From contig NC_086108.1 of assembly GCF_963921235.1 (NCBI RefSeq), positions 248,001 through 312,000 of the forward strand: 64,000 nt of DNA. The letters run 5' to 3'. The stretch is from Mobula hypostoma. Its lineage: Eukaryota. The position numbers and the translations under genes were made by a program. The notes beneath the pieces were generated by a model. It did not search any database, was not told where the DNA came from, and saw only the letters and a program-made list of their open reading frames with translations. This document shows, piece after piece, positions 18,510 through 62,373 of the stretch (positions are counted from its first letter, which is position 1; each line of letters opens with the position of its first letter).

Positions 18510-18628
18510 TTCGCCGTGCAGCCGCTCTCCTTGGGTTGAAAGAGGTTGGCGAAGAGGAGCAATGGATATTGTACTGGTCGGACACTTTCGTGTCACGGGA
18601 TAAAGCCCTGTCACTAAAGCGGTACCAG
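18510..18628 (+). CDS. TTLL6/TTLL13-like: TTLL6/13-like exon: VRRAAALLGLKEVGEEEQWILYWSDTFVSRDKALSLKRYQ
   Basis: tttctttcgcag / gtaatt, 119 nt. Matches VRRAA...W.LYW.D...K.YQ of TTLL6/13. Not in the ORF track. Confidence 0.92.
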
Positions 18629-18960
18629 GTAATTGACCCACGGAAGAGCCAATGAGAAGCTCCCATTCCGCCCCCACCCCCAGAACCTGCACCATTGTGA
18701 AACTCCACTCAGCTTTTAAATTTTCTGATGTTGATGCTGTAGTTACAAGGCATCCCTTCCCTCCGCTAGCCTGCATGTCAGCCTTGGGCAAGGTGTAGCA
18801 CCTGGTTAGACCCCCCCCCCCACTGATCAGGGTCACGCGAAGCCATGGGGGCAGCTGGTGGATGGCCATATGAGCAACCAGTCCTGGTGATATAACCACT
18901 GATGCCAGGCAGGCAATCTCTGAAGAGTATTGACGATGGTTTGGTGGGGGGGGGGGGGTT

Positions 18961-20716
18961 AACCATAGAACATAGAATAGTACAGCACAGTACAGGCCCT
19001 TCAGCCCACAATATTGTGCCGACCCTTAAACCCTGCCTCCCATATAACCCCCCACCTTAAATTCCTCCAAATACCTGTCTAGCACTCTCTTAAATTTCAC
19101 CAGTGTATCTGCCTTCACTACTGACTCAGGCAGTGCATTCCACGCACCAACCACTCTCTGAATAAAAAACCTTCCTCTAATATCCCCCTTGAACTTCACA
19201 CCCCTTACCTTAAAACCATGTCCTCTTGTACTGAGCAGTGGTGCCCTGGGGAAGAGGCGCTGGCTATCCACTCTATCTATTCCTCTTAATATCTTGTATG
19301 CCTCTATCATGTCTCCTGTCATCTTCCTTCTCTCCAAAGAGTAAAGCCCTATCTCCCTTAATCTCTGATCATAATCCATACTCCCTAAACCAGGCCCCAT
19401 CCTGTTAAATCTCCTCTATACCCTTTCCAATGCTTCCACATCCTTCTTAAAGTGAGGCGACCAGAACTGGACACGGTACTCCAAGTGTGGCCTAACCAGA
19501 GTTTTATAGAGCTGCATCATTACCTCGCAACTCTTAAACTCTGTCCCTCGACTTATGAAAGCTAACACCCCATAAGCTTTCTTAACTACCCTATCTACCT
19601 GTGAGGCAACTCATATTGTCCCCACCTTCATCAAGTTCCCTCTCATTGGTGATTACCGAAGAGAAGTATTCATTGAGGACCTCGCTCACTTCCACAACCT
19701 CCAGGCACATCTTCCCACCTTTATCTCTAATCGGTCCTACCTTCATTCCTGTCATCATTTTGATCTTCACATAATTGAAGAATGCCTGGGTTTTCCTTAA
19801 CCCTACTCGCCAAAGCCTTCTCATGTTCCCTTCTTGCTCTCCTCAGCCCCTTCTTAAGCTCCTTTCTTGCTACCCTATATTCCTCAGTAGACCCATCTGA
19901 TCCTTGCTACCTAGACCATGTATGCTGCCTTCTTCCACCTGACTAGATATTCCACCTCACTTGTCACCCATGTTCCTTCAGCCAATCATTCTTTATCTTC
20001 CTCACCGGGACAAATTTATCCCTAACATCCAGCAAGAGATCCCTAAACATCGACCACATGTCCATAATACATTTCCCTGCAAAAACATCATCCCAATTCA
20101 CACCTGCAAGTTCTAGCCTTATAGCCTCATAATTTGCCCTTCCCCAATTAAAATTTTTCCTGTCCTCTCTGACTCTATCCTTTTCCATGATAATGTCAAA
20201 GGCCAGGGAGCAGTGGCCACTGTCCTCCAGATGCTCACCCACTGAGAGATCTGTGACCTGACCTGGTTCGTTACCGAATACTAGATCTAGTATGGCATTC
20301 CCCCTCGTCGGCCTGTCAACATATTGTGACAGGAATCCATGCTGGACATACCTAACAAACTCTGCCCCATCTAAACCATTGGAACTAATCAGGTGCCAAT
20401 CAATATTAGGGAAGTTAAAGTCACCCATGACAACAACCCTGTTATTTTTGCACCTTTCCAAAATCTGCCTCCCAATCTGCTCCTCTGTATCTCTGCTGCT
20501 ACCAGGGGGCCTATAGAATACTCCCAATAGAGTAACTACTCCCTTCCTGTTCCTGACTTCTACCCATACTGACTCAAAAGAGGATCCTGCTACATTACAC
20601 ACCCTTTCTGTAGCTGTAATAGTATCCCTGACCAGTAATGCCACCCCTCCTCCCCTGTCCCCCCCTCTCTATCCCTTTTAAAGCACTGAAATCCAGGAAT
20701 ATTGAGAATCCATCCC
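18961..20716 (-). mobile_element. CR1 LINE (APE endonuclease + C-terminus, RT core deleted) inserted into a family A SINE
   Basis: ORF 19964-20644 has APE motifs (GVFYRPP, MGDFNFP, ILDLV). ORF 19026-19400 is the CR1 C-terminus. SINE A sequence resumes at ~20718. Confidence 0.9.
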
Positions 20717-21780
20717 TACCATCTTGTAAAGACAATACCCAGAAGAAGCCGATGGCAAACCACTTCTGTAGATAACATTTGCTGAGAACAATCACGGTCA
20801 GGAGACCGTGATTGCCCACGTCATATGACATAATGGTTATGATGTGCCTAAGACTTTTGCACACAGTACAGTATTTGTCCTCGTGGAGCAGAGAGCGAGT
20901 TTGTAACTCTGGCGGGAACAAAGGATTTTGGGAATGGCGAGGGTGGAGCACCCCAGGAGGGGTGTGGGACAGGTGGCAGAGGAGTGCCAGGGGTGGGGGG
21001 GTGCAGACACACCCAGCCCTGAGACGCCAGGCAAGGTCACTTGATTCCAAAAATTGGTTTATTAATCATTACAGAATGTCTCTCTGGTGCCTCCCCCTCC
21101 CTTTCCCTTTTCCCAACCATGATTCATTCCCCTCTCCCTGCCCCACTTCCCACTCAGTCTGCAATAGACACCCATATCAGAATCAGGTTTATCATCACTC
21201 ACACATGTCATGAAATTAGATTTTTTTTGTGGCAGCAGTACAGTGCAATACATAAAATCACTACAGTACTGTGCACCCTTGATATTTAGATGTGCTCCTA
21301 AATACCTACCTCATTATGATCTTGCATTTTGTCATTTACCTGTGCTGCATTTTCTGGGTAGCTTTTACACTTTATTCTGTACTTTGATTATTTTACCCTG
21401 TTCTGCCTCATTGTACTGATCTGTGTGAACAGTAGGCAAGACAAGCTTTTCACTGATTCTTGGTATGTGCATGAAAATCGCAGGAGGTTAGCAGTTTCTG
21501 ACATACTCAAACCACCCTGTCTGTCACCGGCAATCATTCCACGGTCAAAGTCACTTAGATCACAAATTCTTCCCCCTCTATTCTGATGTTTGGTCTGAAC
21601 AATGATCGAACTTCTTGACCATGTCTGCATGTTTTTATTAATTGAGTTTCTGCCACATGGTTGGCTGATGAGATATTTTATATTAAGGAGCAGGAGCACC
21701 TAGTAAAATGGTCACTGAACGTATGCCACGTCATACTGGTATACCGTCTGCATGGATTGATAATTCTTTTCCTCGCACAG

Positions 21781-21911
21781 AAAATGAATTACTTTCTTGG
21801 GATGAACGAAATCTGTATGAAGGATTTGCTGGTCATGAACTTAAATCGCATGCTAAGGCAATACCCAGAAGATTACAACATCTTCCCAAAAAGCTGGCGT
21901 TTACCATCTGA
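21781..21911 (+). CDS. TTLL6/TTLL13-like: TTLL6/13-like exon: KMNYFLGMNEICMKDLLVMNLNRMLRQYPEDYNIFPKSWRLPS(E)
   Basis: ttcctcgcacag / gtaagt, 131 nt. Homologous to KINHFPGMSEICRKDLLARN..RM....FP.TW.LP. Confidence 0.93.
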
Positions 21912-23788: not shown

Positions 23789-24189
23789 GGAAAAGAGATG
23801 GCAAGGTGGGACTTGTGAGGCAAAGAGATGGCATGGTGGGACTTGTGAGGCAAAGAGATGGCATGGTGGGACTTGTGAGGCAAAGAGATGGCATGGTGGG
23901 ACTTGTGAGGCAAAGAGATGGTGCGGTGGGACTTGTTAGGCAAAGAGATGGGGTGGTGGGGCTTGTGAGGCAAAGAGATGGGGTGGTGGGGCTTGTGAGG
24001 CAAAGAGATGGTGTGGTGGGACTTGTTAGGAAAAAAGATGGTGTGGTGGGGCTTGTTAGGAAAAGAGATGGTGTGGTGGGACTTGTTAGGCAAAGGGATG
24101 GCATGGTGGGACTTGTTAGGCAAAGAGATAGTATACTGGGACTTGTTAGGCAAAGAGATGGTGTGGTAGGACTTTTTAGGCAAAGGAAT
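23789..24189. repeat. 30-bp minisatellite, left arm (~13 copies)
   Basis: Unit CAAAGAGATGGYRTGGTGGGACTTGTKAGG. Confidence 0.95.
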
Positions 24190-26539
24190 TGAGCAATGAG
24201 GAAGGGTTAATTAGCAATCTTGTCGTGAGAGGCCCCTTGGGTAAGAGTGACCATAATATGGTGGAATTCTTCATTAAGGTGGAGAGTGACATAGTTAATT
24301 CAGAAACAAAGGTTCTGAACTTAAAGAAGGGTAACTTTGAAGGTATGAGACGTGAATTAGCTAAGATAGACTGGCAAATGACACTTAAATGGTTGACGAT
24401 GGATATGCAATGGCAAGCATTTAAAGATCGCATGGATGAACTACAATAATTGTTCATCCCAGTTTGGCAAAAGAATAAATGAAAGAAGGTAGTGCACCCG
24501 TGGCTGACAAGGGAAATTAGGGATAGTATCAATTCCAAAGAATAAGCATACAAATTAGCCAGAAAAAGTGGCTCACCTGAGGACTGGGAGAAATTCAGAG
24601 TTCAGCAGAGGAGGACAAAGGGCTTAATTAGGAAGGGGAAAAAAGATTATGAGAGAAAACTGGCAGGGAACATAAAAACTGACTGTAAAAGCTTTTATAG
24701 ATATGTGAAAAGAAAAAGATTGGTTAAGACAAATGTAGGTCCCCAACAGACAGAAACAGGTGAATTGATTATGGGGAGCAAGGACATGGCAGGCCAACTG
24801 AATAATTACTTTGGTTCTGTCTTCACTAAGGAGGACATAAATAATCTTCCGGAAATAGTAGGGGACAGAGGGTCCAGTGAGATGGAGGAACAGAGGGAAA
24901 TACATGTTAGTAGGGAAGTGGTGTTAGGTAAATTGAAGGGATTGAAGGCAGATAAATCCCCAGGGCCAGATGATCTGCATCCCAGAGTGCTTAAGGAAGT
25001 AGCCCAAGAAATAGTGGATGCATTAGTGATAATTTTTCAAAACTCTTTAGATTCTGGACTAGTTCCTGAGGATTGGAGGGTGGCTAATGTAACCCCACTT
25101 TTTAAAAAAGGAGGGAGAGAGATACCGGGGATTTATAGACCGGTTAGCCTAACATCGGTGGTGGGGAAACTGCTAGAGTCAGTTATCAAAGATGTGATAA
25201 CAGCACATTTGGAAAGCGGTGAAATCATCGGACAAAGTCAGCATGGATTTGTGAAAGGAAAATCATGTCTGACGAATCTCATAGAATTTTTTGAGGATGT
25301 AACTAGTAGAGTGGATGGGGAGAACCAGTGGATGTGGTATATTTGGATTTTCAAAAGGCTTTTGACAAGGTCCCACACAGGAGATTAGTGTGCTAACTTA
25401 AAGCACACGGTATTGGGGGTAAGGTATTGATGTAGATAGAGAATTGGTTAGCAGACAGGAAGCAAAGAGTGGGAAAAAACAGGACCTTGTCAGAATTGCA
25501 GGCGTGACTAGTGGGGTACCGCAAGGCTCAGTGCTGGGACCCCAGTTGTTTACAATATATATTAATGACTTGGATGAGGGAATTAAATGCAGCATCTCCA
25601 AGTTTGCGGATGACACGAAGCTGGGCGGCAGTGTTAGCTGTGAGGAGGATGCTGAGAGGATGCAGGGTGACTTGGATAGGTTGGGTGAGTGGGCAAATTC
25701 ATGGCAGATGCAATTTAATGTGGATAAATGTGAAGTTATCCACTTTGGTGGCAAAAACAGGAAAACAGATTATTATCTGAATGGTGGCGGATTAGGAAAA
25801 GGGGAGGTGCAACGAGACCTGGGTGTCATTATACACCAGTCATTGAAAGTGGGCATGCAGGTACAGCAGGCAGTGAAAAAGGCGAATGGTATGCTGGCAT
25901 TCATAGCAAGAGGATTCGAGTACAGGAGCAGGGAGGTACTACTGCAGTTGTACAAGGCCTTGGTGAGACCACACTTGGAGTATTGTGTGCAGTTTTGGTC
26001 CCCTAATCTGAGGAAAGACATTCTTGCCATAGAGGGAGTACAAAGAAGGTTCACCAGATTGATTCCTGGGATGGCAGGGCTTTCATATGATGAAAGACTG
26101 GATGAGCTAGGCTTATACTTGTTGGAATTTAGAAGATTGCGGGGGGATCTGATTGAAACGTATAAAATCCTAAAGGGATTAGACAGACTAGATGCAGGAA
26201 GATTGTTCCCGATGTTGGGGAAGTCCAGAACGAGGGGTCACAGTTTGAGGATAAAGGGGAAGCCTTTTAGGACCTTGATTAGGAAAAACTTCTTCACACA
26301 GAGAGTGGTGAATCTGTGGAATTCTCTGCCACAGGAAACAATTGAGGCCAGTTCATTGGCTATATTTAAGAGGGAGTTAGATATGGCCCTTGTGGCTAAA
26401 GGGATCGGGGGTATGGAGGGAAGGCTGGTGCAGGGTTCTGAGTTGGATGATCAGCCATGATCATACTGAATGGCGGTGCAGGCTCGAAGGGCCGAATGGC
26501 CTACTCCTGCACCTATTTTCTATGTTTCTATGTTTCTAT
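24190..26539 (+). mobile_element. 5'-truncated CR1 LINE (end of APE, RT, 3' UTR with TATGTTTC tail)
   Basis: ORFs 24705-25388 and 25444-26460 carry KSPGPD, YRPVSLTS, QHGF, GVPQGSVLGP and FADD. GGAAT is duplicated at both ends. Confidence 0.95.
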
Positions 26540-29368: not shown

Positions 29369-29525
29369 ATATTTTGATTTTGCGGCCTACTATAAAGCCG
29401 GGAAACCCAAGACCTTCATCTGCAAGCCAGATCCTGACTATGACTGGCGCGGCATCTTTTTGACCCAGGACATCAGAGATATGCAGTGCGGGGAGGACGT
29501 GATCTGCCAGGTCTACATTCCGAAG
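29369..29525 (+). CDS. TTLL6/TTLL13-like: TTLL6/13-like exon: YFDFAAYYKAGKPKTFICKPDPDYDWRGIFLTQDIRDMQCGEDVICQVYIPK
   Basis: ttctcgctgcag / gtactt, 157 nt. Homologous to KTYICKPDSGCQG(K/R)GIF.....GEDMICQ.YISK. Confidence 0.93.
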
Positions 29526-30489: not shown

Positions 30490-32497
30490 TAGTCATAGTC
30501 ATACTTTATTGATCTGGGGGGAAATTGGTTTTCGTTACAGTTGCACCATAAATAATTAAATAGTAATATCTAAATTATGCCAGTAAATAAGTCCAGGACC
30601 AGCCTATTGGCTCAGGGTGTCTGACCCTCCAAGGGAGAAGTTGTAAAGTTTGATGGCCACAGGCAGGAATGACTTCCTGTGACGCTCTGTGTTGCATCTC
30701 GGTGGAATGAGTCTCTGGCTGAATGTACTCCTGTGCCCACCCAGTACAGTATGTAGTGGATGGGAGACATTGTCCAAGATGGCATGCAACTTGGACAGCA
30801 TCCTCTTTTCAGACACCACCGTCAGAGAGTACAGTTCCATCCCCACAACATCACTGGCCTTATGAATGAGTTTGTTGATTCTGTTGGTGTCTGCTACCCT
30901 CAGCCTGCTGCCCCAGCACACAACAGCAAACATGATCGCACTGACCACCACAGAATCGTAGAACAGTCCTCAGCATCGTCCGGCAGATGTTAAAGGACCT
31001 CAGTCTCCTCAGAAAGTAGAGACGGCTCTGATCCTTCTTGTAGACAGCCTCAGTGTTCTTTGACCAGTCCAGTTTATTGTCAATTCGTATCCCCAGGTAT
31101 TTGTAATCCTCCACCATGTCGACACTGACCCCCTGGATGGAAACAGGGGTCACCGGTACCTTAGCTCTCCTCAGGTCTACCACCAGCTCCTTAGTCTTTT
31201 TCACATTAAGCTGCAGATAATTCTGCTCACACCATGTGACAAAGTTTCCTACCGTAGCCCTGTACTCAGCCTCATCTCCCTTGCTGATGCATCCAACTAT
31301 GGCAGAGTCATCCGAAAACTTCTGAAGATGACAAGACTCTGTGCAGTAGTTGAAGTCCAAGGTGTAAATGGTGAAGAGAAAGGGAGACAAGACAGTCCCC
31401 TGTGGAGCCCCAGTGCTGCTGATCACTCTGTCGGACACACAGTGTTGCAAGCACACGTACTGTGGTCTGCCAGTCAGGTAATCAAGAATCCATGATACCA
31501 GGAAAGCATCCACCTGCATCGCTGTCAGCTTCTCCCCCAGCAGAGCAGGGCGGATGGTGTTGAACGCACTGGAGAAGTCAAAAAACATGACCCTCACAGT
31601 GCTCGCTGGCTTGTCCAGGTGGGCGTAGACACGGTTCAGCAGGTAGACGATGGCATCCTCAACTCCTAGTCGGGGCTGGTAGGCGAACTGGAGGGGATCT
31701 AAGTGTGGCCTGGCCATAGGCAGGAGCAGCTCCAGAACAAGTCTCTCCAGGGTCTTCATGATGTGGGAGGTCAATGCCACCGGTCTGTAGTCATTGAGGC
31801 CGCTGGGGCGCGGCGTCTTCGGCACAGGGACGAGGCAGGACGTCTTCCACAGCACAGGAACCCTCCGGAGCCTCAGGCTCAGGTTGAAGACATGGCGAAG
31901 TACTCCACATAGCTGAGGGGCACAGGCTTTGAGCACCCTGGTACTGACACCATCCGGTCCTGCAGCCTTGCTTGGGTTGAGACGTTTCAGCTGTCTTCTC
32001 ACCTGTTCAGCTGTGAAGCCCACCATGGTGGTTTCGTGTGGGGAAGGGGTATAGTCATGAGAGCAGGGTAGGGGGCTATGAGGAGGGGTAGGAGGGGAGA
32101 GTGGAATATGTGTTGGTTGGGGGCCAACAACAGATGAATCATGTGGGGGATGGGCAGGGGCCACAATGTCAAATCTGTTAAAGAACAGGTTAAGTTCATT
32201 GGCCGTGTCCACGCTGCCTTCAGCTCCTCTGTTGCTAGTTTGCCGGAACCCAGTGATGGTCCTCGTCCCACTCCAGACCTCTCTCATGTTGTTCTGCTGG
32301 AGTTTCAGCTCAAGCTTCCTCCTATACCTGTCTTTAGCCTCCCTGATCCTGGCTTTCAGGTCCCTCTGTATTGCCCTCAGCTCCTCCCTATATCCATCAC
32401 TAAACACCCTCTTTTTAGCGTTCAGGATGTCCTTAATGTCCTTTGTCACCCATGGCTTGTTATTTGAATAACAAAGGACAGTTCTTGTCGGAACATT
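30490..32497 (-). mobile_element. 5'-truncated Rex1/Babar LINE with near-intact RT, inserted in a family A SINE
   Basis: ORF 30860-32707 has NNKPW, KAAGPDG, DYRPVALTS, DPLQFAY, FFDFSSAFNTI, GAPQGTVLSP, FSDDS and YKYLG. (GACTAT)n tail at ~30490-30505. Confidence 0.95.
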
Positions 32498-33093
32498 GCA
32501 GTCCTTCCATGACCATGATTGTTCTTGGCCAATTTTTCCACAGAAGTGGTTTGCCATCGCCCTGTTCTGGGTAGGGGTGGGTGACCCCCAGCCATTATCA
32601 ATACTATTCGGAGATTGTCTGCCTGGCACCAGTGATCGCATAACCAGGACTTGTGAGCTGCACCGGCTGCTCATACGACCATCCACCCCCTGCTTCCACG
32701 GCTTCACGTGACCCTGATCCAGGAGCTAAGCAGGTGATACACCTTGCCCAAGGGTGACCTGCAGACCTTACATCTCCTTTGGTGGAGACCTATCCCACCC
32801 CATTCCTCAACCAAGATAATGGAAATTTTATTACTGCTCTGGTGGTAATTTTGTGTTTGGACTGGGTATCCACAGCATTCTGTCACTGTGAATGATAGGC
32901 TGGTGGGAATGGTGGAAATTTGGGTAAGAAGTTAATCGGGGGATTTGAAGATGTGTGGTTTGAGTGGGATAGTGGGGGGCATAATTCATGAATGGAATAA
33001 GGACTTGAGGGATAGGCTGGGCAGGAATTTCCATTAGCAAATCCCTTTTGTGATTGTCGAGCCAACTTCACATGCTAAAGTGATTACGCATTG

Positions 33094-35647
33094 GAAAACC
33101 ATAGAAAACTACAGCACAGAAACAGGCCTTTTGACCCTTCTTGGCTATGCCGAACCATTTTCTGCCTAGTCCCACTGACCTGCACACGGACCATATCCCT
33201 CCATACACCTCCCATCCATGTATCTGTCCAATTTATTCTTAAATGTTAAAAAAGAACCCGCATTTACCACCTCATCTGGCAGCTCATTCCATACTCCCAC
33301 CACTCTCTGTGTGAAGAAGCCCCCCCCTAATGTTCTCTTTAAACTTTTCCCCCCTCACCCTTAACCCATGTCCTCTGGTTTCTTTCTCCCCTTGCCTCAG
33401 TGGAAAAAGCCTGCTTGCATTCACTCTATCTATACCCATCATAATTTTATATACCTCTATCAAATCTCCCCTCATTCTTCTACGCTTCAGGGAATAAAGT
33501 CCTAACCCATTCAACCTTTCTCTGTAACTCAGTTTCTCAAGTCCTGGCAACATCCTTGTAAACCTTCTCTGCACTCTTTCAACCTTATTAATATCCTTCC
33601 TGTAATTTGGTGACCAAAACTGAACACAATACTCCAGATTCGGCCTCACCAATGCCTTATACAACCTCATCATAACATTCCAGCTCTTATACTCAATACT
33701 TTGATTAATAAAGGCCAATGTACCAAAAGCTCTCTTTACGACCCTATCTACCTGTGATGCCACTTTTAGGGAATTTTGTATCTGTATTCCCAGATCCCTC
33801 TGTTCTACTGTACTCCTCAGTGCCTTACCATTAACCCTGTATGTTCTACGTTGGTTTGTCCTTCCAACATGCAATACCTCACACTTGTCTGTATTAAACT
33901 CCATCTGCCATTTTTCAGCCCATTTTTCCAGCTGGTCCAAGTCCCTCTGCAGGCTCTGAAAACCTTCCTCACTGTCTACTCCATCTCCAATCTTTGTATC
34001 ATCAGCAAATTTGCTGATCCAATTTACCACATTATCATCCAGATCACTGATATAGATGACAAATAACAATGGACCCAGCACTGATCCCTGTGGCACACCA
34101 CTAGTCACAGTCCTCCACTCGGAGAAGCAATTCTCTACTACCACTCTTTGGCTTCTTCCACTGAGCCAATGTCTAATCCAATTTACCGCCTCTCCATGTA
34201 TACCTAGCGACTGAATTTTCCTAACTAACCTCCCATGTGGGACCTTGTCAAAGGCCTTACTGAAGTCCATGTAGACAATATCCACTGCCTTCCCTTCATC
34301 CACTCTCCTGGTAACCTCCTCGAAAAACTCCAGTAGATTGGTTAAACATGACCTACCACGCACAAAGCCATGTTGACTCTCCCTAATAAGTCCCTGTCTA
34401 TCCAAATGCTTGTAGATTCTGTCTCTTAGTACTCCCTCCAATAACTTAGCTACTACCGACGTTAAACTTACCGGCCTGTAATTTCCCGGATTACTTTTCG
34501 ATCCTTTTTTAAACAACGGAACAACATGAGCCACTCTCCAATCCTCCGGCACCTCACCCGTAGACAGCGACATTTTAAATATTTCTGCCAGGGCCCCCGC
34601 AATTTCAACACTAGTCTCCTTCAAGGTCCGCGGGAACACCCTGTCAGGTCCCAGGGATTTATCCACTTTAATTTTCCTCAAGACAGCAAGCACCTCCTCC
34701 CTTTCAATCTGTACAGTTTCCATGATCTCAGTACTTGATTCCCTTAATTCCATAGACTTTATGCCAGTTTCCTTAGTAATACAGACGCAAAAAACCTATT
34801 TAAGATCTCCCCCATTTCCTTTGGTTCCGCATGTAGCTGACCACTCTGATCTTCAAGAGGACCAATTTTATCCCTTACAATCCTTTTGCTCTTAATATAC
34901 CTGTAAAAGCTCTTTGGATTATCCTTCACTTTGACTGCCAAGGCAACCTCATGTCTTCTTTTAGCCCTCCTGATTACTTTCTTAAGTATTTTCTTGCACT
35001 TCTTATACTCCTCAAGCACCTGATTTACTCCCTGTTTCCTATACATTTCATACAACTCCCTCTTCTTTTTTATCAGAGTTGCAATATCCCTTGAGAACCA
35101 AGGTTCCTTAGTCCTATTCACTTTGCCTTTAATCCTGACAGGAACATACAAATTCTGCAATCTCAAAATTTCTCCTTTGAAGGCCTCCCACCTACCGATC
35201 ACATCTTTACCAGAGAGCAACCGGTCCCAATCCATGCTTTTTAGATCCCTTCTCATTTCTTCAAATTTGGCCTTCTTCCAGTTCAGAACCTCAACCCTAG
35301 GACCAGATCTATCCTTGTCCATGATCAAATTGAAACTAGTGGTGTTATGATCACTGGAACCAAAGTGCTCCCCTACACAGACTTCTGTCACTTGTCCTAA
35401 CTCGTTTCCTAACAGGAGATCCAATATTGCATCCCCTCTAGTTGGTCCCTCTATATATTGATTTAGAAAACTTTCCTGAACACATTTTAAACCATCTAAA
35501 CCATCTAGACCCCTAACAGTATGGGTGTCCCAATCAATAAATGGAACATTAAAATCCCCTACCACCACAACTTTATGTTTCCTGCAGTTGCCTGCTATCT
35601 CTCTGCAGATTTGCTCTTCCAAGTCTCGTTGACTATTTGGTGGTCTG
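33094..35647 (-). mobile_element. 5'-truncated young CR1 LINE (partial APE + RT)
   Basis: ORFs 34759-35622 and 33284-34753 (489 aa, all RT motifs including YMDFSKAFDKVPH, PQGSVLGP, FADD), separated by one frameshift. Confidence 0.96.
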
Positions 35648-36389
35648 AGTGGGATTGATCAGAGAGAATTTTGAGCGTTTTTGCGTCGAGGGCTGGAGTA
35701 GGGGTAAGTCCAAAGGAAAGAACCAGGTGCAGATAAACACAAGAGTTTCTGCAGGTGCTGAAAATGCAGAGTAACATATCCAAAATGCTGGGGGAAGTTA
35801 GCAGGTCAGGCAGCATCTGTGCAGAGGAAAAAAGAGTCGACGTTTCAGCCCAAGACCCTTCATCTGGAATGCAGACACACATTTCAAAAATTAGTTACCG
35901 ATGCGGATGGCGACCGAGGGTTCAGCACCAGATACCTGCGTTCTGATCACTGATGGGATCCCTCTGCCTCCAGGGAAGGAGCCTGTGGCAGCCTGTCGCT
36001 GTGTGGCGACTCAGGTGGCCAGAGGGTCGGCCTCTACAGTGTCTCTTTCTCTCTTGACAATGGATTTTATATTCTGGGTTTTTCCCCATTCTTTCCTGTT
36101 TTTTATTTGAGTGGGCAGAGGGTGGGGGGATTTGGGGGTTGATGTTCTGTGTTTTGTGCAGGGGAAGGGGAATTTGGGGGGGTTGATGATTGTGTTGCTG
36201 TTCTTTTTTCTATGTGGGGGGTGGGTGCATGGGTTTGATGTTTCTCTTTCAACGACCTCCATATTTTTTCCTTTGTTCGGTGGCTATCTGGAGAAGATGA
36301 ATCTCAGAGTTGTACACTGCATACATACTTTGATAATAAGTGACACCTTTGAACCTCACAGTGTGTTAACTCTTCCTCTACTTGTGCAG

Positions 36390-36533
36390 CCCTTCACTTT
36401 GGATGGTTTCAAGTTTAACCTCAGGCTCTACGTCTTGGTTACTTCCTGTGACCCTCTGCGGATATACCTCTACAATGAGGGCCTGGTCTGCTTTGCCACT
36501 AAAAAGTATTCCGAACCGACCGAAAATAATTTA
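36390..36533 (+). CDS. TTLL6/TTLL13-like: TTLL6/13-like exon: PFTLDGFKFNLRLYVLVTSCDPLRIYLYNEGLVCFATKKYSEPTENNL
   Basis: ctacttgtgcag / gtaagt, 144 nt. Hallmark TTLL segment DGFKFDLR.YVLVTSCDPLR...Y.EGL.RFAT. Confidence 0.96.
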
Positions 36534-43280: not shown

Positions 43281-43329
43281 TAGTACAGAGAATTTAACGC
43301 CGTGAACATTAGGACTGAGAAATGCGTTC

Positions 43330-46508: not shown

Positions 46509-46594
46509 GATGACGTCTGCATGCACCTCACCAATTACGCCATCAACAAGCGTATGATGAACTTTGTCCCGGATGAAAAGAAAGGCAGTAAAAG
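46509..46594 (+). CDS. TTLL6/TTLL13-like: TTLL6/13-like exon: DDVCMHLTNYAINKRMMNFVPDEKKGSK(R)
   Basis: ctgcctctcacag / gtgaga, 86 nt. Contains the MHLTNY.INK and GSKR motifs. Not in the ORF track. Confidence 0.95.
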
Positions 46595-48450: not shown

Positions 48451-48466
48451 GGAGTGAAGCTGAAAT

Positions 48467-51904: not shown

Positions 51905-52130
51905 AAAGCTGTCTTTCTTTAACCAGTACATGGAGGGCAATGCCTATGACCTGGAGGTGCTGTGGAGCAGTATTGAGGACGTGATCATCAAAACCATTCT
52001 GTCTGTGTATCCGGCCCTGAGGAACACCTACTGCACCTGCTTCCGAAATCACGTGTCTGGGAGTGCTTGCTTTCAGCTGCTCGGCTTTGACATCCTGCTG
52101 GACCACAGCTTGAAACCCTGGCTGATGAAG
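51905..52130 (+). CDS. TTLL6/TTLL13-like: TTLL6/13-like exon: KLSFFNQYMEGNAYDLEVLWSSIEDVIIKTILSVYPALRNTYCTCFRNHVSGSACFQLLGFDILLDHSLKPWLMK
   Basis: tttcttgcag / gtacgc, 226 nt. Contains IEDVIIKT and SACF.(I/L)LGFDILLD..LKPWL. Confidence 0.96.
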
Positions 52131-55649: not shown

Positions 55650-55831
55650 GTTAAGCATTCACTGAGCTCTGTGATGGACTCCAAGCTTGATCAAGAGGTG
55701 AAGGAGGATCTTCTTTATGATACACTCTGCATGATTAACCTTGCAGCTTGTGGCCGGCAGAAAGACATGGCGGAAGAGAGGCCACGAAAGAAGGAACAGC
55801 TGCCTAAGATCTGGTGGTCGCGGGAGTACAG
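55650..55831 (+). CDS. TTLL6/TTLL13-like: TTLL6/13-like exon: VKHSLSSVMDSKLDQEVKEDLLYDTLCMINLAACGRQKDMAEERPRKKEQLPKIWWSREY(R)
   Basis: ttaacgttgcag / gtgact, 182 nt. Homologous to VNHSPSF.TDS.LD.EVK..LLYDTL..INL and the start of the cationic microtubule-binding region. Confidence 0.93.
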
Positions 55832-56199
55832 GTGACTGAAAGACTGAAGAGTGCCACGCTGGGCAACGATAATTAATGAATATTCCTGCTCTCAAATTCA
55901 GCTGCACACACAAAGTGCTGGAGGAACTCAGCAGGCCAGGCAGCACCCATTTAGAACGGAGATGACGAGAAGTTTCTTTTGCCAGAGGGTGGTGAATCTG
56001 TGGAATTCATCGTCACAGATGGGAGTGGAGGCCAAGTCATCGGGTATATTTAAGGCAGAGGGTGATAGATCCTTGATTAGTCAGGGCATGAGGGGTTATG
56101 GAGAGAAGGCAGGAGTTTGAGGCTGAGATGGGAAGGGATCAGTCGTGATCAAACGGCAAAGCAGCTCCGATGGGCCAAATGGCCTAATTCTGCTCGTCT

Positions 56200-57575: not shown

Positions 57576-58069
57576 AGAAGTTCCTGCTGCTGCTTAGAGC
57601 TGCAACGAAGGGGAAAGGAGGTGGATTCAGCAGGCAGGCAGAGGTGGAGTGAAGACTGTGGGCTGGACTGCGCTCGAGAGGACAAGAACATATCACCAAG
57701 GAAGTAATGCTGAGGCTTTATAAGGCACTGGTCAGACCGCACTTGGAGTATTGTGAGCAGTTCTGGGTGGCGGGGCGGAGATACGTTTCTACCAAAGAAG
57801 GTGCAAGGTGCCCCTTCCCCCATCTAGCCTGCAGGTCACCCTTGGACAAGATGTAGCAGCTAGTTAGCCCCCTGATCAGGGAGTAGGTGGTGGATAGTCG
57901 TATGAGCAGCCGGTGCAGATCGCAAGTCCTGGGTATGTGAGCACTGACGCCAGGCAGACAATCTCTGAAGAGTATTGATAATGACTGGGGTCACCCGTCT
58001 TTTAAAGACACTGGCCCAGAAGAAGACAATGGCAGACCACTGCTGTAGATAACTTTGCCAAGAGCAATC

Positions 58070-61000
58070 AATAGACAATAGGCAATAGGTGCAGGAGTAG
58101 GCCATTCAGCCCTTCGAGCCAGCACCGCCATTCACTGTGATAATGGCTGATCATTCACAATCAGTACCCTTTTCCTGCCTTCTCCCCATATCCCTTGACT
58201 CCGCTATCATTAAGAGCTCTATCTAGCTCTTTCTTGAAAGCATCCAGGGAATTGGCCTCTACTGCCTTCTGAGGCAGAGCATTCCACAGATCCACAACTC
58301 TCTGGGTGAAAAAGTTTATCCTTAACTCCATTCTACGTGGCCTACCCATTATTGTCAAACTGTGGCCTCTGGTTCTGGACTCCCCCAACATTGGGAACAT
58401 GTTTCCTGCCTCTAGCGTGTCCAATCCCTTAATAATCTTGTATGTTTCAATCAGATCCCCTCTCATCCTTCTAAAGTTCAGTGTATACAAGCCCAAATAG
58501 CTCCAATCTTTCACCATATGACAGTCCCGCCATCCTGGGAATTAATCGCGTGAACCTCGACTGCACTCCCTCAATAGCAAGAATGTCCTTCCTCAAATTT
58601 GGAGACCAAAACTGTATACAATACTTCAGTTGTGGTCTCACCAGGGCCCTGTACAACTGCAGAAGGACCTCTTTGCTCCTATACTCAACTCAACTCCCCT
58701 TGTTACGCCATTAGCTTTCTTCACTGCCTGCTGTACCTGCATGCTTACTTTCAGTGACTGATGAACAAGGACACCAAGATCTTGTTGTACTTCCCCTTTC
58801 CTAACTTGACACCATTCAAATAGTAATCTGCCTTCCTGTTCTTGCCACCAAAGTGGATAACCTCACATTTATCCACATTAAACTGCATCTGCCCACTCAC
58901 CCAACCTGTCCAAGTCATCCTGCATTATCTCAACATCCTCCGCACATTTCACCCTGCCACCCAGCTTTGTGTCATCTGCAAATTTGCTAATGTTACTTTT
59001 AATCCCTTCATCTAAATCATTAATGTATATTGTAAATAGCTGCGGTCCCAGCACCGAGCCTTGTGGTACCCCACTAGTCACTGCCTGCCATTCTGAAAGG
59101 GACCCATTAATCCCTACTCTTTGTTTCCTGTCTGCCAACCAATTTTCTATCCCTGTCAGTACCGTACCCCCAGTACCATGTGCTCTAATTTTGCCCACTA
59201 ATCTCCTATGTGGGACCTTATCAAAGGCTTTCTGAAAGTCCAGGTACACTGGCTCTCCCTTGTCCATTTTCATAGTTGCATCCTCAAAAAATTCCAGAAG
59301 ATTAGTCAAGCATGATTTCCCCTTCGTAAATCCATGCTGACTTGGACCGATCCTGTTACTGCTACCCAAATGTGCCGCTATTTCATCCTTTATAATTGAC
59401 TCCAGCATCTTCCCCAGCACTGATGTCAGGCTAACTGGTCTATAATTCCCTGTTTTCTCTCTCCCTCCTTTCTTAAAGAGTGGAATAACATTAGCTACCC
59501 TCCAGTCCTCAGGAACTGATCCTGAATCTATAGAATATTGGAAAATAATTGCCAATGCATCCATGATTTCTAGAGCCACCTCAAGTACCCTGGGGTACAG
59601 ACCATCAGGCCCTGGGGATTTACCATCCTTCAGTCCCATCAGTCTATCCAATACCATTTTCTGCCTAATGTGAATCTCCTTCAGTTCCTCCGTTACCCTA
59701 GGTCCTCCGGCCACTATTACATCTGGGAGATTGTTTGTGTCTTCCCCAGTGAAGACAGATCCAAAGTACTTGTTCAACTCGTCTGCCATTTCCTTGTTCC
59801 CCATAATAAATTCACCCATTTCTGTCTTCAAGGGCCCAACTTTGGTCTTAACTAATTTTTTCCTCTTCACATACCTAAAGAAGCTTTTATTATCCTCCTT
59901 TCTATTCTTGGCTAGCTTGCCTTCGTATCTCATCTTTTCTCCCCATATTGCCTTTTAAGTTATCCTCTGTTGCTCTTTAAAAGTCTCCCAATCCTCTGGC
60001 TTCCCGCTCATCTTTGCTATGTTATACTACTTCTCTTTTATTTTTATACTGTGCTTGACTTCCCTTGTCATTCATGGTTGTCCCTTACTCCCCTTAGAAT
60101 CCTTCTTCCTCTTTGGAATGAACTGATCCTGCACCTTCCCAGAAGTACCTGCCATTGTTGTTCCACTGTCATCCCTGCTAGGGGATCTTTCCAGTCAACT
60201 TTGGCCAGCTCCTCCCTCATGGCTCCATAGTCCCCTTTGTTCAACTGCAATACTGACACTTCCGATTTTCCCTTCTCCCTCTCAAATTGTATTTGAAAAC
60301 TTATCATATTATGGTCACTACCTCCTAATGGCTTCTTTACCTCGAGTTCCCTTATCAAATCCGGTTCATTACACAACACTAAATCCAGAATTGCCTTCTC
60401 CCTGGTAGGTTCCAGTACAAGCTACTCTCAGAATCCATCTCAGAGGCACTCCACAAACTCCTTTTCTTGGGGTCTGGACCAACCTGATTTTCCCAGTCTA
60501 CCTGCATGTTGAAATCCCCCATAACAACCGTAGCATTACCTTTGCGACATGCCAGTTTTAACTCTTGATTCAACTTGCACCCTATATCCAGGCTACTGTT
60601 TGGGGCCCTGTAGATAACTCCCATTAAGGTCTTTTTGCCCTTACAATTTCTCAGTTCTATCCATACCGACTCTACATCTCCTGATTCTGTGTCGCCCCTT
60701 GCAAGGTACTGAATTTCATTCCTCACCAACAGAGCCACCCCACCCCCTCTACCCACCTGTCTGTTCTTTTGATAGGACCTATACCCTTGAATATTTATTT
60801 CCCAGCCCTGGTCCTTTTGCAGCCATGTCACTGTTATTCCTACAACGTCATACTTGCCAATTTCCAACTGAGCCTCAAGTTCATCCACTTTATTTCTTAT
60901 ACTCCATGCATTGATATATAATACTTTTAATCCATTACAGTACTCTCCTCACCTTTCACATTGATTCCTATTGCACTTGGCCATACTCTCCGATCCCTTC

Positions 61001-61252
61001 CTGAGCTTTCTGCCCCGTTAATTCTGTTGTCTTTCTTAACTTTCCTTATTCTCTCTTTCCCTTTAACTCCATCCTTATATTTCCTCTCCTCCCCCCCACT
61101 ATTTAGTTTAAACACACCAGTGTAGCAGGGGCAAACCTGCCTGCCAGAATGCTGGTCCCCCGCCTGTTAAGGTGCAACCTGTCCCTTTTGTACAATTCAT
61201 CCTTGCCCCAAAACAGATCCCAGTGGTCTAAGAATCTAAATCCCTGCTTCCC
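58070..61252 (-). mobile_element. Long CR1 LINE (ORF1 esterase C-terminus, APE, RT, 3' UTR) inserted in a family A SINE
   Basis: ORFs 61103-61297 (FLDHWDLFW..D.LHLN), 60379-60888 (APE), 58878-59933 (RT) and 58161-58517. SINE A resumes at ~61275. Confidence 0.95.
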
Positions 61253-61349
61253 ATGGGGCCATGGCCCAATCATGGCCGTGGGACCAAGATCACCCATGTC
61301 TTACAACACGGCACATAATGATGATGTCATATGACCCAGCACATAATGA

Positions 61350-62150
61350 TAGAAACATAGAAATGTACAGCTCAATACAGGCCCTTTGGCTCACAGAGCT
61401 GTGCCGAACATGTCCTTACTTTAAACATTACCTTGGGTTACCCATAGCCCTCCATTTTTCTAAGCTCCATGTACCTATCCAGGAGTCTTTTAAAAGACCC
61501 TATCATATCCGCCTCCACCACCGTTGCCGGCAGCCCATTCCACACCCTCACCACTCTCTGTGTGAAGAAACTTACCCCGACATCTCCTCTGTATCTGCTT
61601 CCAAGCACCTTAAAACTGTGCCCTCTCATTTCAGCCCTTTAACATCAAAAAAAGATGGGCTGGCACTGGAGAAAGTCCAGAGGAGGTTCAAAAGAATGAT
61701 CCTGGGAATGAAAGGGTTAAGTTTTGAGGAGCGTTTGATGGCCCTGGGCCTGTACTTGCTGGAGTTTAGAAAAATGTGGGAGGATCACATTGAAGTCTAT
61801 CAAATATTGAAAGGCCTAGGCAGAGTGGATGTAGAAAGGCTGTTTCTTTCTGTACGGGAATCTAAAACCAGAGGACACAGCCTGAGAATACAAGAATGTC
61901 CTTTTCGAACAGAGACAAGGAGGGATTTCTACAGCCGGCGGTGGTGAATCTGTGGAAATAATTGCAGAATATGGCTGTGGAGGCCAAGTCATTGGGTAAG
62001 AGGAGATTGATAGGTTCTTGTTTAGTAAGGGGGGAGTCAAAGGTTATGGAGAGAAGGCTGGAGAAGGAAAATATCTCAGCCGTGATGGAATTCTGGAGCA
62101 GGCTCGATGGGCTGAATGGCCTCATTTTGCTCCTGTGTTTTCTGGTCTTA
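61350..62150. mobile_element. Two CR1 3' fragments in opposite orientation
   Basis: Minus fragment 61350-61630 (RGHSFKV...FFTQRVV) joined to plus fragment 61640-62150. Confidence 0.8.
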
Positions 62151-62208
62151 TGGCAAGAGGTCGATTTTCAAAGGAATAACTGACACCTCCTCTTTGCTTT
62201 CCTATTAG

Positions 62209-62373
62209 AGCTGACGAGACACGAAACAACCAGGCTACCTGGGTGGAACAGGTGGAAAAGTATGAAGACGAAAACATGGGGAACTTCAAAAGGATCTACC
62301 CGAGCTCCACTTCAGAGAAATACGAGAAGTTCTTGGAAACGGTTGACTCCGAGGCTCGGGAAGAATATGTCAG
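62209..62373 (+). CDS. TTLL6/TTLL13-like: TTLL6/13-like exon: ADETRNNQATWVEQVEKYEDENMGNFKRIYPSSTSEKYEKFLETVDSEAREEYV(R); the gene probably continues beyond the window
   Basis: Acceptor ctttgctttcctattag. Matches YE..N.G.F..IYP...SEKYEKF...AREEY.R. Donor uncertain: GC donor at 62374 or GT at 62378. Confidence 0.88.

What the first reader, a model, noticed from the sequence alone, without database searches (positions are those of the whole stretch)
18510..62373. Open-frame TTLL6/13-like gene with a dismantled active site: candidate tubulin-code pseudoenzyme
Seen in sequence: eight exons (119, 131, 157, 144, 86, 226, 182 and ~165 nt) spread over 44 kb of TE-rich introns splice in phase, with no stop or frameshift over ~400 codons despite many amino-acid changes. 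The changes hit catalytic positions: LLEVN to LMKVK, KPDSGCQG(K/R)G to KPDPDYDWRG, ARFA to VCFA (TGC 36489-36491), KFDLR to KFNLR (AAC 36417-36419), NHFPG to NYFLG, CFE to CFQ and HSPSF to HSLSS. Structural motifs (TSCDPLR, MHLTNY, GSKR, GFDILLD, YEKF) are kept. Established: in TTL/TTLL ATP-grasp ligases the D...ExN residues bind Mg-ATP, and mutating this Glu is the standard way to make a dead enzyme; TTLL12 is a precedent for a non-catalytic family member. Inference: this may be a retained, non-catalytic paralogue that binds microtubules or glutamylated tails as a reader, scaffold or competitor, possibly in cilia or sperm.
Basis: partly seen in the sequence, partly recalled or inferred. Interest (0 to 1): 0.82.

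Follow-up and report, generated by a model that had tools for sequence, protein, structure and literature searches.

The report
Amplified dead TTLL6 copies in devil rays
The window holds one copy of a devil-ray and manta-ray gene family, copied from the tubulin-glutamylating enzyme TTLL6, that has lost residues needed for catalysis yet is still transcribed, spliced and kept in open reading frame, so it probably makes a non-enzymatic tubulin-related protein.

Summary
Eight AG/GT-bounded exons (18510-62377, + strand) splice into 404 open codons, and the listed substitutions are present.

The gene is larger than reported: at least 14 coding exons, starting 3.3 kb before the window and ending more than 16 kb after it. 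It is already annotated in RefSeq as Mobula hypostoma "ttll6-like", 858 aa.

It is not a lone paralogue. The genome holds at least 9 full or near-full copies and 2 partial ones, plus an intact canonical TTLL6-like gene. M. birostris has more than 20 protein models of the same family. All carry R241C and E359K, two residues whose mutation reduces mouse TTLL6 activity to background, plus Q180D, G181W, D217N/T and N361K. Most nucleotide- and glutamate-binding residues are kept.

Evolution:
- On the stem, amino-acid changes run at 2.35 times the intron-calibrated neutral expectation.
- Among copies, omega is 0.64-0.93, with 0 stops (5.6 expected), 1 in-frame indel (18 expected) and all splice sites kept.
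- On tip branches, omega is about 0.36.

Spliced exon 6-7-8 contigs exist.

Open problem: every copy lost the ancestral AG acceptor of coding exon 2.

Verdict: an expanded, probably non-catalytic TTLL6-derived family. Its function is inferred, not shown.

The parts
1..9547 (.). About 9.5 kb CT-rich low-complexity array (units such as CCTC or CTCCCTCCCTCCCT), lying inside intron 1 of the gene. Coding exon 1 is 3.3 kb upstream of the window.
   Evidence: GC skew about -0.94. Sequence read directly. Tandem Repeats Finder rows at 1/8/9-9541/9547. Exon 1 at C50:244734-244921.
10471..10505 (+). Coding exon 2, a mini-exon encoding (R)WINLSNCKQSS(V) in RefSeq model P0028. The ancestral acceptor AG (10472-10473 equivalent) is TG in all 7 dead copies examined or matched. 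The only AG nearby (10463-10464) would put TGA 10466-10468 in frame. The donor GT is at 10506.
   Evidence: tblastn 10472-10504 matches P0005 residues 64-74 at 100%. Sequence read. Comparison with the canonical copy and two other copies. The 161-nt block is 99-100% identical in 7 dead copies.
18510..18628 (+). It is the fastest-diverging exon against the canonical copy (35 of 135 nt including flanks).
21781..21911 (+). Exon of 131 nt, KMNYFLG... (TTLL6 H115Y and P117L). K125 is retained and R124 is replaced by M.
29369..29525 (+). Exon of 157 nt holding the beta5-beta6 phosphate loop, ICKPDPDYDWRGIF. K174 is kept. S177P, G178D, C179Y, Q180D and G181W are changed.
36390..36533 (+). Exon of 144 nt with KFNLR (D217N; R219 kept) and VCFA (R241C).
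46509..46594 (+). Exon of 86 nt with MHLTNY (T263 and N264 kept) and GSKR (K283 kept).
51905..52130 (+). Exon of 226 nt with GFDILLD (D346 kept) and PWLMK (L358M, E359K).
   Evidence: Covered by the spliced contig in run X3.
55650..55831 (+). Exon of 182 nt, VKHSLSS... N361K and P364L are changed; H362, S363 and K377 are kept. It has the most skewed stem counts: 24 nonsynonymous to 1 synonymous fixed differences.
   Evidence: Spliced contigs in runs X3 and X4.
62209..62377 (+). Exon of 169 nt (165 nt if the ancestral donor position, now GC, is used; the mRNA is the same either way). It carries a 24-nt in-frame deletion relative to the canonical copy.
   Evidence: Spliced contigs end at 62377.

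Best explanation
The window carries most of one copy of a Mobula-specific, DNA-duplicated gene family derived from the canonical TTLL6-like tubulin polyglutamylase gene. This copy is RefSeq 'ttll6-like', 858 aa, in Mobula hypostoma.

Shown:
- After the duplication the founding copy went through a burst of amino-acid replacement. The burst removed two residues individually required for TTLL6 catalysis: R241, which holds the gamma-phosphate and the donor glutamate, and E359, a Mg2+ ligand. It also remodelled the phosphate loop (Q180D, G181W).
- The gene was then amplified to at least 9 full or near-full copies. These lie on one chromosome-scale contig (C40), near the starts of two others (C50, C76) and on small scaffolds.
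- The copies are transcribed and spliced.
- Their reading frames and splice sites are protected from stops and frameshifts.

Inferred:
- They most likely encode non-catalytic TTL-domain proteins, that is, pseudoenzymes.
- Because the lysines and asparagine that contact nucleotide and the residues that bind donor and acceptor glutamates are kept, the most likely mode of action is binding without ligation. The protein would occupy glutamylated tubulin tails or microtubules, possibly with nucleotide bound, and so tune or compete with polyglutamylation.
For: Family and origin.
- Exon 6 has 10 copies at 91-100% identity in the window's own genome, plus the canonical copy at 81%.
- Exon-by-exon searches rebuild 9 full or near-full copies and 2 partial ones.
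- Introns align to the canonical locus at about 93%, so the duplication was DNA-based.
- In the tree the dead clade has 100/100 support. It is sister to the Mobula canonical gene (94/82) and contains two subfamilies, each with both Mobula species.

Dead site.
- Family proteins of the two species carry EGLVCFA in 29 of the 29 that cover the site, PWLMKV in 32 of 32, and KF(N/T)LR in 28 of 28.
- Outgroups keep LLEVN in 10 of 10, IRFA in 8 of 8 and KFDLR in 8 of 8.
- Residue mapping comes from the TTLL6 alignment. Mutational data come from passages of bioRxiv 10.1101/2020.06.07.139295.

Expression.
- A run X3 contig (931 nt, depth 76.7) joins exons 6, 7 and 8 at the predicted borders, with 9/226, 4/182 and 5/171 mismatches and no gap.
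- A run X4 contig joins exons 7 and 8.
- The canonical gene differs at 31 of 198 aligned nt of exon 7 (flanks included) and by a 24-nt indel in exon 8, so it cannot be the source.

Selection.
- All 74 dead-copy exon instances keep AG and GT, and there is one 3-nt indel.
- No stops occur in any of the 11 copies.
- Against an intron-calibrated neutral model from the same loci (6903 columns), 5.6 stops were expected and 0 seen (P=0.004). 18.1 indels were expected and 1 in-frame indel seen (P=2.6e-7).
- Private tip changes are 20 synonymous to 17 nonsynonymous, giving omega about 0.36 (P=0.002). The window copy has 5 to 1.
- The ML codon model gives omega 0.64 for the TTL core (2dlnL 3.99).

Stem.
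- 95 nonsynonymous fixed differences against 40.4 expected (P=2e-13), with an omega-like ratio of 1.63.
- 58 amino-acid changes fall on the dead lineage against 18 on the canonical lineage (P=5e-6).
- An MK-like contrast gives P=0.023, or 0.002 without the first exon.
Against: - All dead copies examined have TG where the canonical gene has the AG acceptor of coding exon 2. The only nearby AG puts a TGA in frame.
- RefSeq models bridge this gap with two different non-AG acceptors for identical DNA (RKR|W in P0028 and P0005; RKR|IW in P0033 and P0048) or start downstream at MSLKRYQ. The true N-terminus is therefore unknown. In the window copy that downstream Met is a Leu.
- Amino-acid constraint among copies is weak. 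The omega-like ratio is 0.93 overall (P=0.71) and 0.78 in the core (P=0.23). ML omega is 0.79, not significant, for core plus last exon.
- Stem changes hit invariant positions in proportion to their share (25 of 58 changes; 182 of 404 columns invariant). That is what full relaxation would also give.
- The two partial, presumably non-functional copies also lack stops.
- Intron indel rates may overstate exon expectations.
- The spliced contigs differ 2-4% from the window copy, so they show expression of the family, not of this copy. The runs are only guessed to be RNA.
- No protein-level or activity data exist.
Confidence: 0.6

Rival explanations
1. A young family of transcribed, unprocessed pseudogenes. 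TTLL6 was duplicated, lost function (catalytic residues and the exon 2 acceptor), and was spread by segmental duplication. The open frames reflect youth and gene conversion, not selection for a protein.
For: - The ancestral acceptor is lost in all copies, and the nearest AG puts TGA in frame.
- Crown omega is 0.79-0.93 and not significantly below 1.
- Exon and intron event rates are equal, 0.083 against 0.084 per site.
- Stem changes are spread over invariant and variable positions alike.
- Partial copies exist and are also free of stops.
- RefSeq models have inconsistent N-termini and run into transposon sequence.
Against: - 0 stops against 5.6 expected, and 1 in-frame indel against 18.1 expected, while 67 indel patterns accumulated in 6.9 kb of flanking introns of the same copies.
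- All 74 exon instances keep their splice dinucleotides.
- Tip omega is about 0.36 (P=0.002).
- Stem nonsynonymous change is 2.35 times the neutral expectation, which relaxation alone cannot produce.
- The ATG, frame and donor of exon 1 are intact in 10 of 10 copies examined.
- The family persists in open frame in two species.
- More distant relatives of the tail exon in this genome do carry stops, so decay is visible here.
Confidence: 0.22
2. The transcripts act at the RNA level. For example, they could be NMD-targeted or decoy transcripts that regulate the canonical TTLL6-like gene, and the protein would be irrelevant.
For: - Transcription and splicing are shown.
- The probable premature stop would leave a 64-codon upstream ORF if the AG acceptor is used.
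- The 161-nt block around the mini-exon is 99-100% identical among copies. About 6 differences are expected between subfamilies, P about 0.003. This suggests a constrained RNA or splicing element.
Against: An RNA role does not explain why frameshifts and stops are missing across 1.6 kb of downstream coding exons, nor the tip excess of synonymous over nonsynonymous change.
Confidence: 0.08
3. The proteins are still ligases, or ATP-dependent enzymes with altered chemistry or substrate. The stem burst would then reflect a change of specificity rather than loss of catalysis.
For: - 7 of the 9 residues whose mutation abolishes TTLL6 activity are kept: K125, K174, R219, N264, K283, D346 and K377. 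H362 and S363 are also kept.
- Positive selection on the stem is concentrated in active-site exons: 16:3 in the phosphate-loop exon, 11:0 in the exon with E359, and 24:1 in the exon with N361.
Against: According to the paper's passages, single mutations of R241 or E359 reduce TTLL6 activity to background, and both are replaced here. The Mg2+-ligand Glu and the neighbouring Asn are both lysines, and G181W sits in the loop whose backbone amides hold the beta-phosphate.
Confidence: 0.05

Closest known systems
Canonical Mobula hypostoma TTLL6-like gene (P0007, 927 aa; own genome C91:61,897,206-61,970,806)
   Same: It has the same exon-intron structure, with introns alignable at about 93%. It has the same TTL domain and long C-terminal tail, and it is the sister branch in the tree.
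   Different: The canonical gene keeps KFDLR, IRFA, SQGRG, LLEVN and HSPS, and the AG acceptor of exon 2. The dead family differs by 95 fixed nonsynonymous changes in the 404-codon core, a 24-nt in-frame deletion, a GT-to-GC donor and extra 3' exon(s), and it is multi-copy.
Mammalian TTLL6 (solved structures 6VZQ-6VZW, 8T42, 8U3Z)
   Same: It is the best solved relative by sequence: E=6e-156 over residues 57-500. The Pfam TTL domain scores 226 bits. The nucleotide- and glutamate-binding residues K125, K174, R219, T263, N264, K283, D346, H362, S363 and K377 are conserved.
   Different: R241C, E359K, Q180D, G181W, D217N and N361K are changed. R241 and E359 are individually essential for activity, according to passages of bioRxiv 10.1101/2020.06.07.139295.
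TTLL12, a TTLL family member reported without tubulin ligase activity
   Same: It is a precedent for a TTL-domain protein retained without the family's catalytic activity. Basis: search listing and the start of the abstracts of PMC3520985 and PMC10883266 only.
   Different: TTLL12 is ancient, single-copy, widely conserved and has a SET-like domain. The Mobula family is young, multi-copy, TTLL6-derived and shows only the TTL domain in Pfam.
Catalytically dead paralogues that regulate their active relatives (for example the trypanosomatid deoxyhypusine synthase paralogue)
   Same: This is an analogy for how the family might work: a dead copy that binds the same partners and modulates the active enzyme. 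Basis: search listing and abstract start of PMC3663545 only.
   Different: No interaction between the dead Mobula proteins and canonical TTLL6 or tubulin has been tested. The resemblance is conceptual.

Membership tests
TTL/TTLL ATP-grasp family (Pfam PF03133) | TTL domain profile match above the curated cut-off | tested here: met
   P0028 scores 226 bits against a cut-off of 20.1, over residues 112-389. The canonical P0007 scores 291 bits.
TTL/TTLL ATP-grasp family (Pfam PF03133) | Mg2+/gamma-phosphate catalytic residues (TTLL6 D346, E359, R219, R241) | tested here: not met
   D346 and R219 are kept. E359K and R241C are present in every family protein that covers the sites: 32 of 32 and 29 of 29. 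Their essentiality comes from the paper's passages.
TTL/TTLL ATP-grasp family (Pfam PF03133) | Nucleotide-contacting residues (K125, K174, T263, N264; backbone of Q180/G181) | tested here: inconclusive
   K125, K174, T263 and N264 are kept. The loop SGCQG is replaced by PDYDW. Whether ATP still binds cannot be told from sequence.
TTLL glutamylases | Donor-glutamate lysines K283 and K377, invariant in glutamylases, and acceptor contacts H362 and S363 | tested here: met
   All four are retained in the window protein (their roles).
TTLL glutamylases | Glutamate ligase activity on tubulin | not testable with these tools
   This needs recombinant protein and a glutamylation assay.
TTLL6 orthologue | Orthologous, single-copy position in the TTLL6 tree | tested here: not met
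   The dead clade is a Mobula-specific sister of the canonical Mobula gene. Its stem branch is 0.23 against 0.07 for the canonical gene. The canonical gene lies on another contig.
Pseudoenzyme | Homologue of an enzyme lacking residues essential for catalysis | tested here: met
Pseudoenzyme | Expressed | tested here: met
   This is met for the family, not specifically for this copy. Spliced exon 6-7-8 and 7-8 contigs occur in two runs, 2-4% different from the window copy. The runs are guessed to be RNA, and no protein evidence exists.
Pseudoenzyme | Coding sequence retained by selection | tested here: inconclusive
   For: 0 stops against 5.6 expected, 1 indel against 18.1 expected, and tip omega 0.36. 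Against: crown omega 0.64-0.93 and the lost exon 2 acceptor.
Unprocessed pseudogene | Disabling lesions (stops, frameshifts, lost splice sites) | tested here: inconclusive
   There are none in 74 exon instances of exons E1-E8 or in the 10 last-exon copies. One shared lesion candidate exists: AG to TG at the exon 2 acceptor.
TTLL12-like inactive TTLL | SET-like domain followed by a TTL-like domain; ancient and conserved | tested here: not met
   Pfam finds only the TTL domain. The origin is recent and within stingrays. The TTLL12 architecture is taken from an abstract start.

The most novel reading that the evidence does not exclude
Manta and devil rays evolved, by positive selection and then amplification, a family of catalytically dead TTLL6 'anti-enzymes'. 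These would keep the glutamate- and nucleotide-binding pockets and act as readers or blockers of polyglutamate chains on axonemal or neuronal microtubules. The copy-number expansion near chromosome ends and the rapid evolution would reflect dosage demand or a genetic conflict, for example in sperm flagella. This would be the first known lineage-specific, multi-copy non-catalytic regulator of the tubulin code.
Probability: 0.3. Interest if true: 0.8.

Novelty: new variant of a known kind. Interest (0 to 1): 0.62.

Why it matters
Tubulin glutamylation is written by TTLL enzymes, and few dedicated non-catalytic binders of glutamate chains are known. A naturally evolved TTLL6 derivative that kept the substrate pockets but lost the chemistry would be a ready-made probe for how glutamylated tails are recognised. 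Selection appears to have driven its origin and protected it afterwards.

It would also be a clear case of a pseudoenzyme arising by adaptive change followed by gene amplification in a vertebrate.

Two full-text searches (terms 'TTLL'+'Mobula'; 'Mobula'+'polyglutamylase') found no paper. The family seems to exist only as automatic annotation.

If the rival is right and these are transcribed pseudogenes, the locus is still a useful caution. RefSeq models here bridge a lost acceptor with non-AG splice sites.

Tried and rejected
- No RNA holder was listed for the window stretch. The 10 runs offered are only guessed to be RNA. Parts of the stretch without spliced cover say nothing.
- The single read-laying run covered exons E5-E8 only. 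The exon 1 / exon 2 junction, exons E1-E4 and the exons after E8 were not examined in reads.
- AlphaFold2 on a 21-sequence alignment of the 858-aa protein gave mean pLDDT 31.9 and pTM 0.28. The model is unusable, so no fold search was run.
- The first intron spectrum, from unfiltered MAFFT alignments, was discarded. Non-homologous transposon segments inflated it, up to 0.57 events per site. The filtered version keeps 6903 columns.
Loci for two exon searches could not be cut. Exon-sized stretches were fetched instead. Intron context is therefore missing for exons E2, E5, E7 and E8.
- Left out of the selection counts: the two partial copies (C40 42.10 Mb and 42.01 Mb), the second last-exon copy at C40 27.625 Mb, the large tail exon, coding exons 1, 2 and 11, and the C96 and C63 relatives.
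- The terminal 25 residues of P0028 were not found in the DNA held.
- Earlier-findings look-up: nothing on this genome.
- A search for a TTLL6-microtubule cryo-EM paper listing interface residues found none in the library. Retention of microtubule-binding residues was therefore not tested.
- TTLL13 membership was not tested separately.

Full report
**1. Observation**

Each is bounded by AG and GT:
- 18510-18628
- 21781-21911
- 29369-29525
- 36390-36533
- 46509-46594
- 51905-52130
- 55650-55831
- 62209-62377

Joined, they read open for 404 codons in one frame. Of the 12 motifs searched, 11 lie where stated, and LMKVK spans the exon 6/7 junction.

Pfam finds a TTL domain at 226 bits against a cut-off of 20.1. 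The best solved relative is TTLL6, with E=6e-156.

The introns carry LINE-type reverse-transcriptase and endonuclease ORFs. Eight of the 11 long ORFs tested hit such families.

**2. What the gene really is**

Exon 6 hits Mobula proteins at 91-93% identity. Canonical elasmobranch TTLL6-like proteins score only 72-80%.

Cluster look-up shows the window's own product is already in RefSeq. It is P0028, 858 aa, 'tubulin polyglutamylase ttll6-like [Mobula hypostoma]'. My spliced translation is residues 76-479 of it, letter for letter.

The gene is longer than the finding:
- Coding exon 1 (ATG, 63 codons) lies at C50:244734-244921, 3.3 kb before the window.
- A mini-exon lies at window 10471-10505.
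- After exon E8 come exons at C50:316469-316642, 322818-323276 and about 327184-327618.
- At least one further exon was not located.

Intron 1 contains the 9.5-kb CT-rich array that fills window 1-9547.

**3. A family, not a lone paralogue**

Own-genome searches, exon by exon, find nine full or near-full copies:
- C50 (the window)
- C166
- C76
- C70
- C124
- C40 at 27.6, 31.4, 42.2 and 42.7 Mb

There are also two partial copies, at C40 42.10 Mb (exons E5-E8) and C40 42.01 Mb (mini-exon, E1, E2).

The intact canonical gene lies at C91:61,897,206-61,970,806 and is 98-100% identical to P0007.

A partial relative at C96:15.07 Mb shares several family substitutions but keeps KFDLR, IRFA and GRG.

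C70 and C76 are nearly identical over parts of their length, and C50 and C166 are about 98-99% alike. Some copies may therefore be haplotigs or very recent duplicates.

M. birostris has more than 20 protein models of the family.

In a protein tree the family is monophyletic with 100/100 support. It is sister to the Mobula canonical gene (94/82) and lies inside stingrays after Hemitrygon. It splits into two subfamilies that each contain both Mobula species. The first amplification therefore predates their split.

**4. The active site**

I mapped the window protein onto TTLL6 numbering using the alignment. I read passages of bioRxiv 10.1101/2020.06.07.139295 for residue roles. According to those passages:
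- Mutation of K174, K125, N264, R219, R241, D346, E359, K283 or K377 reduces activity to background.
- Q180A lowers activity by 64% and H362A by 82%.

The family has these replacements:
- R241C
- E359K
- Q180D
- G181W
- D217N, or T in the C76 and C70 copies
- N361K
- P364L
- H115Y
- P117L

The family retains K125, K174, R219, T263, N264, K283, D346, H362, S363 and K377.

The roles of D217 and N361 are recalled from TTL and were not seen in the passages read.

Across 33 family proteins of the two species:
- EGLVCFA is in 29 of the 29 that cover the site.
- PWLMKV is in 32 of 32.
- KF(N/T)LR is in 28 of 28.
- None has the canonical form.

Outgroups keep LLEVN (10 of 10), IRFA (8 of 8) and KFDLR (8 of 8).

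So catalysis is very probably lost, but the pockets for nucleotide and for both glutamates are largely intact.

**5. Expression**

No run is on record as RNA. I laid four runs that are only guessed to be RNA on window:46400-62500:
- A 931-nt contig in run X3 (depth 76.7) joins exons 6, 7 and 8 at the predicted borders. It has 9/226, 4/182 and 5/171 mismatches.
- A 401-nt contig in run X4 (depth 40.5) joins exons 7 and 8.
- A 1922-nt contig in run X2 stops matching at the E8 donor and runs on for about 1.5 kb.

These contigs cannot come from the canonical gene. That gene differs at 31 of 198 aligned nt of exon 7 (flanks included) and by a 24-nt indel in exon 8.

Unspliced contigs over the exon 6 borders also exist. 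The contigs differ 2-4% from the window copy, so they show that the family is transcribed and spliced, not that this particular copy is.

**6. Selection among copies (crown)**

All 74 exon instances of E1-E8 in dead copies keep AG and GT. The only indel is a 3-nt deletion in exon E3 of the C70 copy. No copy has a stop. The last exon is open in 10 of 10 family hits.

For a neutral yardstick I aligned the intron flanks of five exon loci from the same copies. I filtered out misaligned transposon segments and counted derived alleles once each:
- 6903 columns
- 579 events, or 0.084 per site
- 67 indel patterns, or 0.116 per substitution
- ts/tv 2.03, with CpG transitions about five-fold faster

The exons analysed were E1-E8 plus the last exon, 1644 nt, in nine copies:

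| Class | Observed | Expected if neutral |
|---|---|---|
| Nonsynonymous | 93 | 104.5 |
| Synonymous | 44 | 45.9 |
| Nonsense | 0 | 5.6 |
| Indels | 1 | 18.1 |

The exon rate is 0.083 events per site. P(0 stops) is 0.004 and P for the indel deficit is 2.6e-7. Splice dinucleotides took 0 hits against 2.9 expected (P=0.058).

The omega-like ratio is 0.93 overall and 0.78 in the core (P=0.23). IQ-TREE with GY+F3X4 gives omega 0.79 (2dlnL 1.64) overall and 0.64 (2dlnL 3.99) for the core.

Private tip changes in the nine copies are 20 synonymous to 17 nonsynonymous. This gives omega about 0.36 (P=0.002). The window copy has 5 to 1.

Reading frames are therefore clearly protected. Amino-acid constraint is weak overall but visible on the youngest branches.

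Caveats:
- Intron indel rates may exceed those of exons.
- Gene conversion is evident from mosaic similarity.
- The two partial copies also lack stops.

**7. Selection on the stem**

Fixed differences between all dead copies and the canonical gene in the core are 95 nonsynonymous and 25 synonymous. The intron-calibrated expectation is 40.4 and 17.3. The nonsynonymous excess has P=2e-13. The omega-like ratio is 1.63 (binomial P=0.028).

The most skewed exons are:
- E7: 24 nonsynonymous to 1 synonymous
- E3: 16 to 3
- E6: 11 to 0

Polarising with outgroup proteins puts 58 changes on the dead lineage, 18 on the canonical lineage, and leaves 24 ambiguous (P=5e-6). Of the 58, 25 hit columns invariant from chimaera to mammals; 182 of 404 columns are invariant.

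An MK-like contrast of fixed against within-family changes gives P=0.023, or 0.002 without the first exon.

The canonical branch is included in these counts and no nucleotide outgroup was available. The excess is therefore a lower bound for the stem, but it rests on a clock assumption.

**8. The unresolved 5' junction**

The canonical gene splices exon 1 (donor AG|GTAACG, phase 2) to ...ATAAG|GATTAAT. All dead copies read ...ATATGGATTAAT, so the acceptor AG has become TG. The 161-nt block is 99-100% identical in seven copies.

The only AG left is at 10463-10464, and it would place TGA 10466-10468 in frame.

RefSeq models handle this in different ways:
- They use non-AG acceptors in two different registers: RKR|W in P0028 and P0005, and RKR|IW in P0033 and P0048.
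- Or they start at MSLKRYQ, as in P0044, P0001 and P0003.
- Or they use other first exons, as in P0054 and P0037.

In the window copy that Met is Leu.

Exon 1 itself keeps its ATG, frame and donor in 10 of 10 copies examined.

The GT-to-GC change at the ancestral E8 donor is harmless. A GCAG repeat makes the mRNA identical whichever donor-acceptor pair is used.

**9. Explanation and rivals**

- Best reading (0.60): an adaptive burst disabled catalysis in a TTLL6 duplicate. The duplicate was then amplified and is maintained as a translated, non-catalytic TTL-domain protein. Binding of glutamylated tails or microtubules without ligation is inferred from the retained pockets.
- Transcribed young pseudogenes (0.22).
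- RNA-level role (0.08).
- Altered but active enzyme (0.05).

**10. Novelty**

The gene models exist in RefSeq. Full-text searches for TTLL with Mobula and for Mobula with polyglutamylase found no paper. A search for TTLL6 with pseudogene, inactive and paralogue terms listed nothing relevant among the 10 shown of 187.

TTLL12 is the known inactive family member, seen only as listing and abstract starts. It differs in age, architecture and copy number.

I file this as a new variant of a known kind: a pseudoenzyme within the TTLL family.

Noticed in passing
window 1-9547: A 9.5-kb strongly strand-asymmetric CT-rich array (GC 0.64, GC skew -0.94; units CCTC or CTCCCTCCCTCCCT, with a 102-nt higher-order period) fills most of intron 1 of the gene. 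Long polypyrimidine tracts of this kind can form triplex DNA. Whether other copies carry it was not checked.
   Followed up: partly
   Followed up: no
window 10400-10560 and its copies (own genome): The mini-exon with about 65 nt upstream and 55 nt downstream is 99-100% identical in 7 dead copies, although flanking DNA differs by 3-4%. The chance of no difference is about 0.003. This could be a constrained splicing element or recent gene conversion.
   Followed up: partly
own genome, exon 1 hits (C40, C76, C50, C91, C96): Coding exon 1 has more copies than the gene body. There are 18 family-type hits, often two about 2 kb apart upstream of one gene (for example C40:42297864 and 42299993). Three canonical-type copies of exon 1, and one of the mini-exon, lie on the opposite strand about 620 kb upstream of the canonical gene (C91:61.26-61.28 Mb). 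All are open.
   Followed up: partly
own genome C96:15,068,268-15,078,013 (L051, L064, L085) and C96:7.73-7.77 Mb: An intermediate relative shares several family substitutions (KMNYF, MKDLLV) but keeps KFDLR, IRFA and GRG. Only exons E2-E4 were found there. Tail-exon relatives on C96 and at C40 35.9-36.4 Mb carry stops. These may be decayed early branches of the family.
   Followed up: partly
window 62370-62380 and C50:316460-316475: The ancestral E8 donor GT is GC in all dead copies. A GCAG repeat at the donor and at the next acceptor makes the two possible splice pairs give the same mRNA.
   Followed up: yes
own genome C22:109,465,026-109,465,934 (L022) and C67:12,988,825 (L033): Single long open frames (648 and 200 aa) are 42-45% identical to the TTLL6 core across what are several exons in TTLL6. 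They could be other TTLL genes or intronless copies.
   Followed up: no
window 19964-20668, 24546-26460, 30860-35658, 41565-42329, 58878-59954: LINE-type reverse-transcriptase and endonuclease ORFs lie on both strands inside the introns. Some RefSeq models of other copies (P0001, P0005, P0037) run into such sequence at their C-termini.
   Followed up: partly
Exon 1 (phase 2) could also join that exon in frame. This was not examined in RNA.
   Followed up: no
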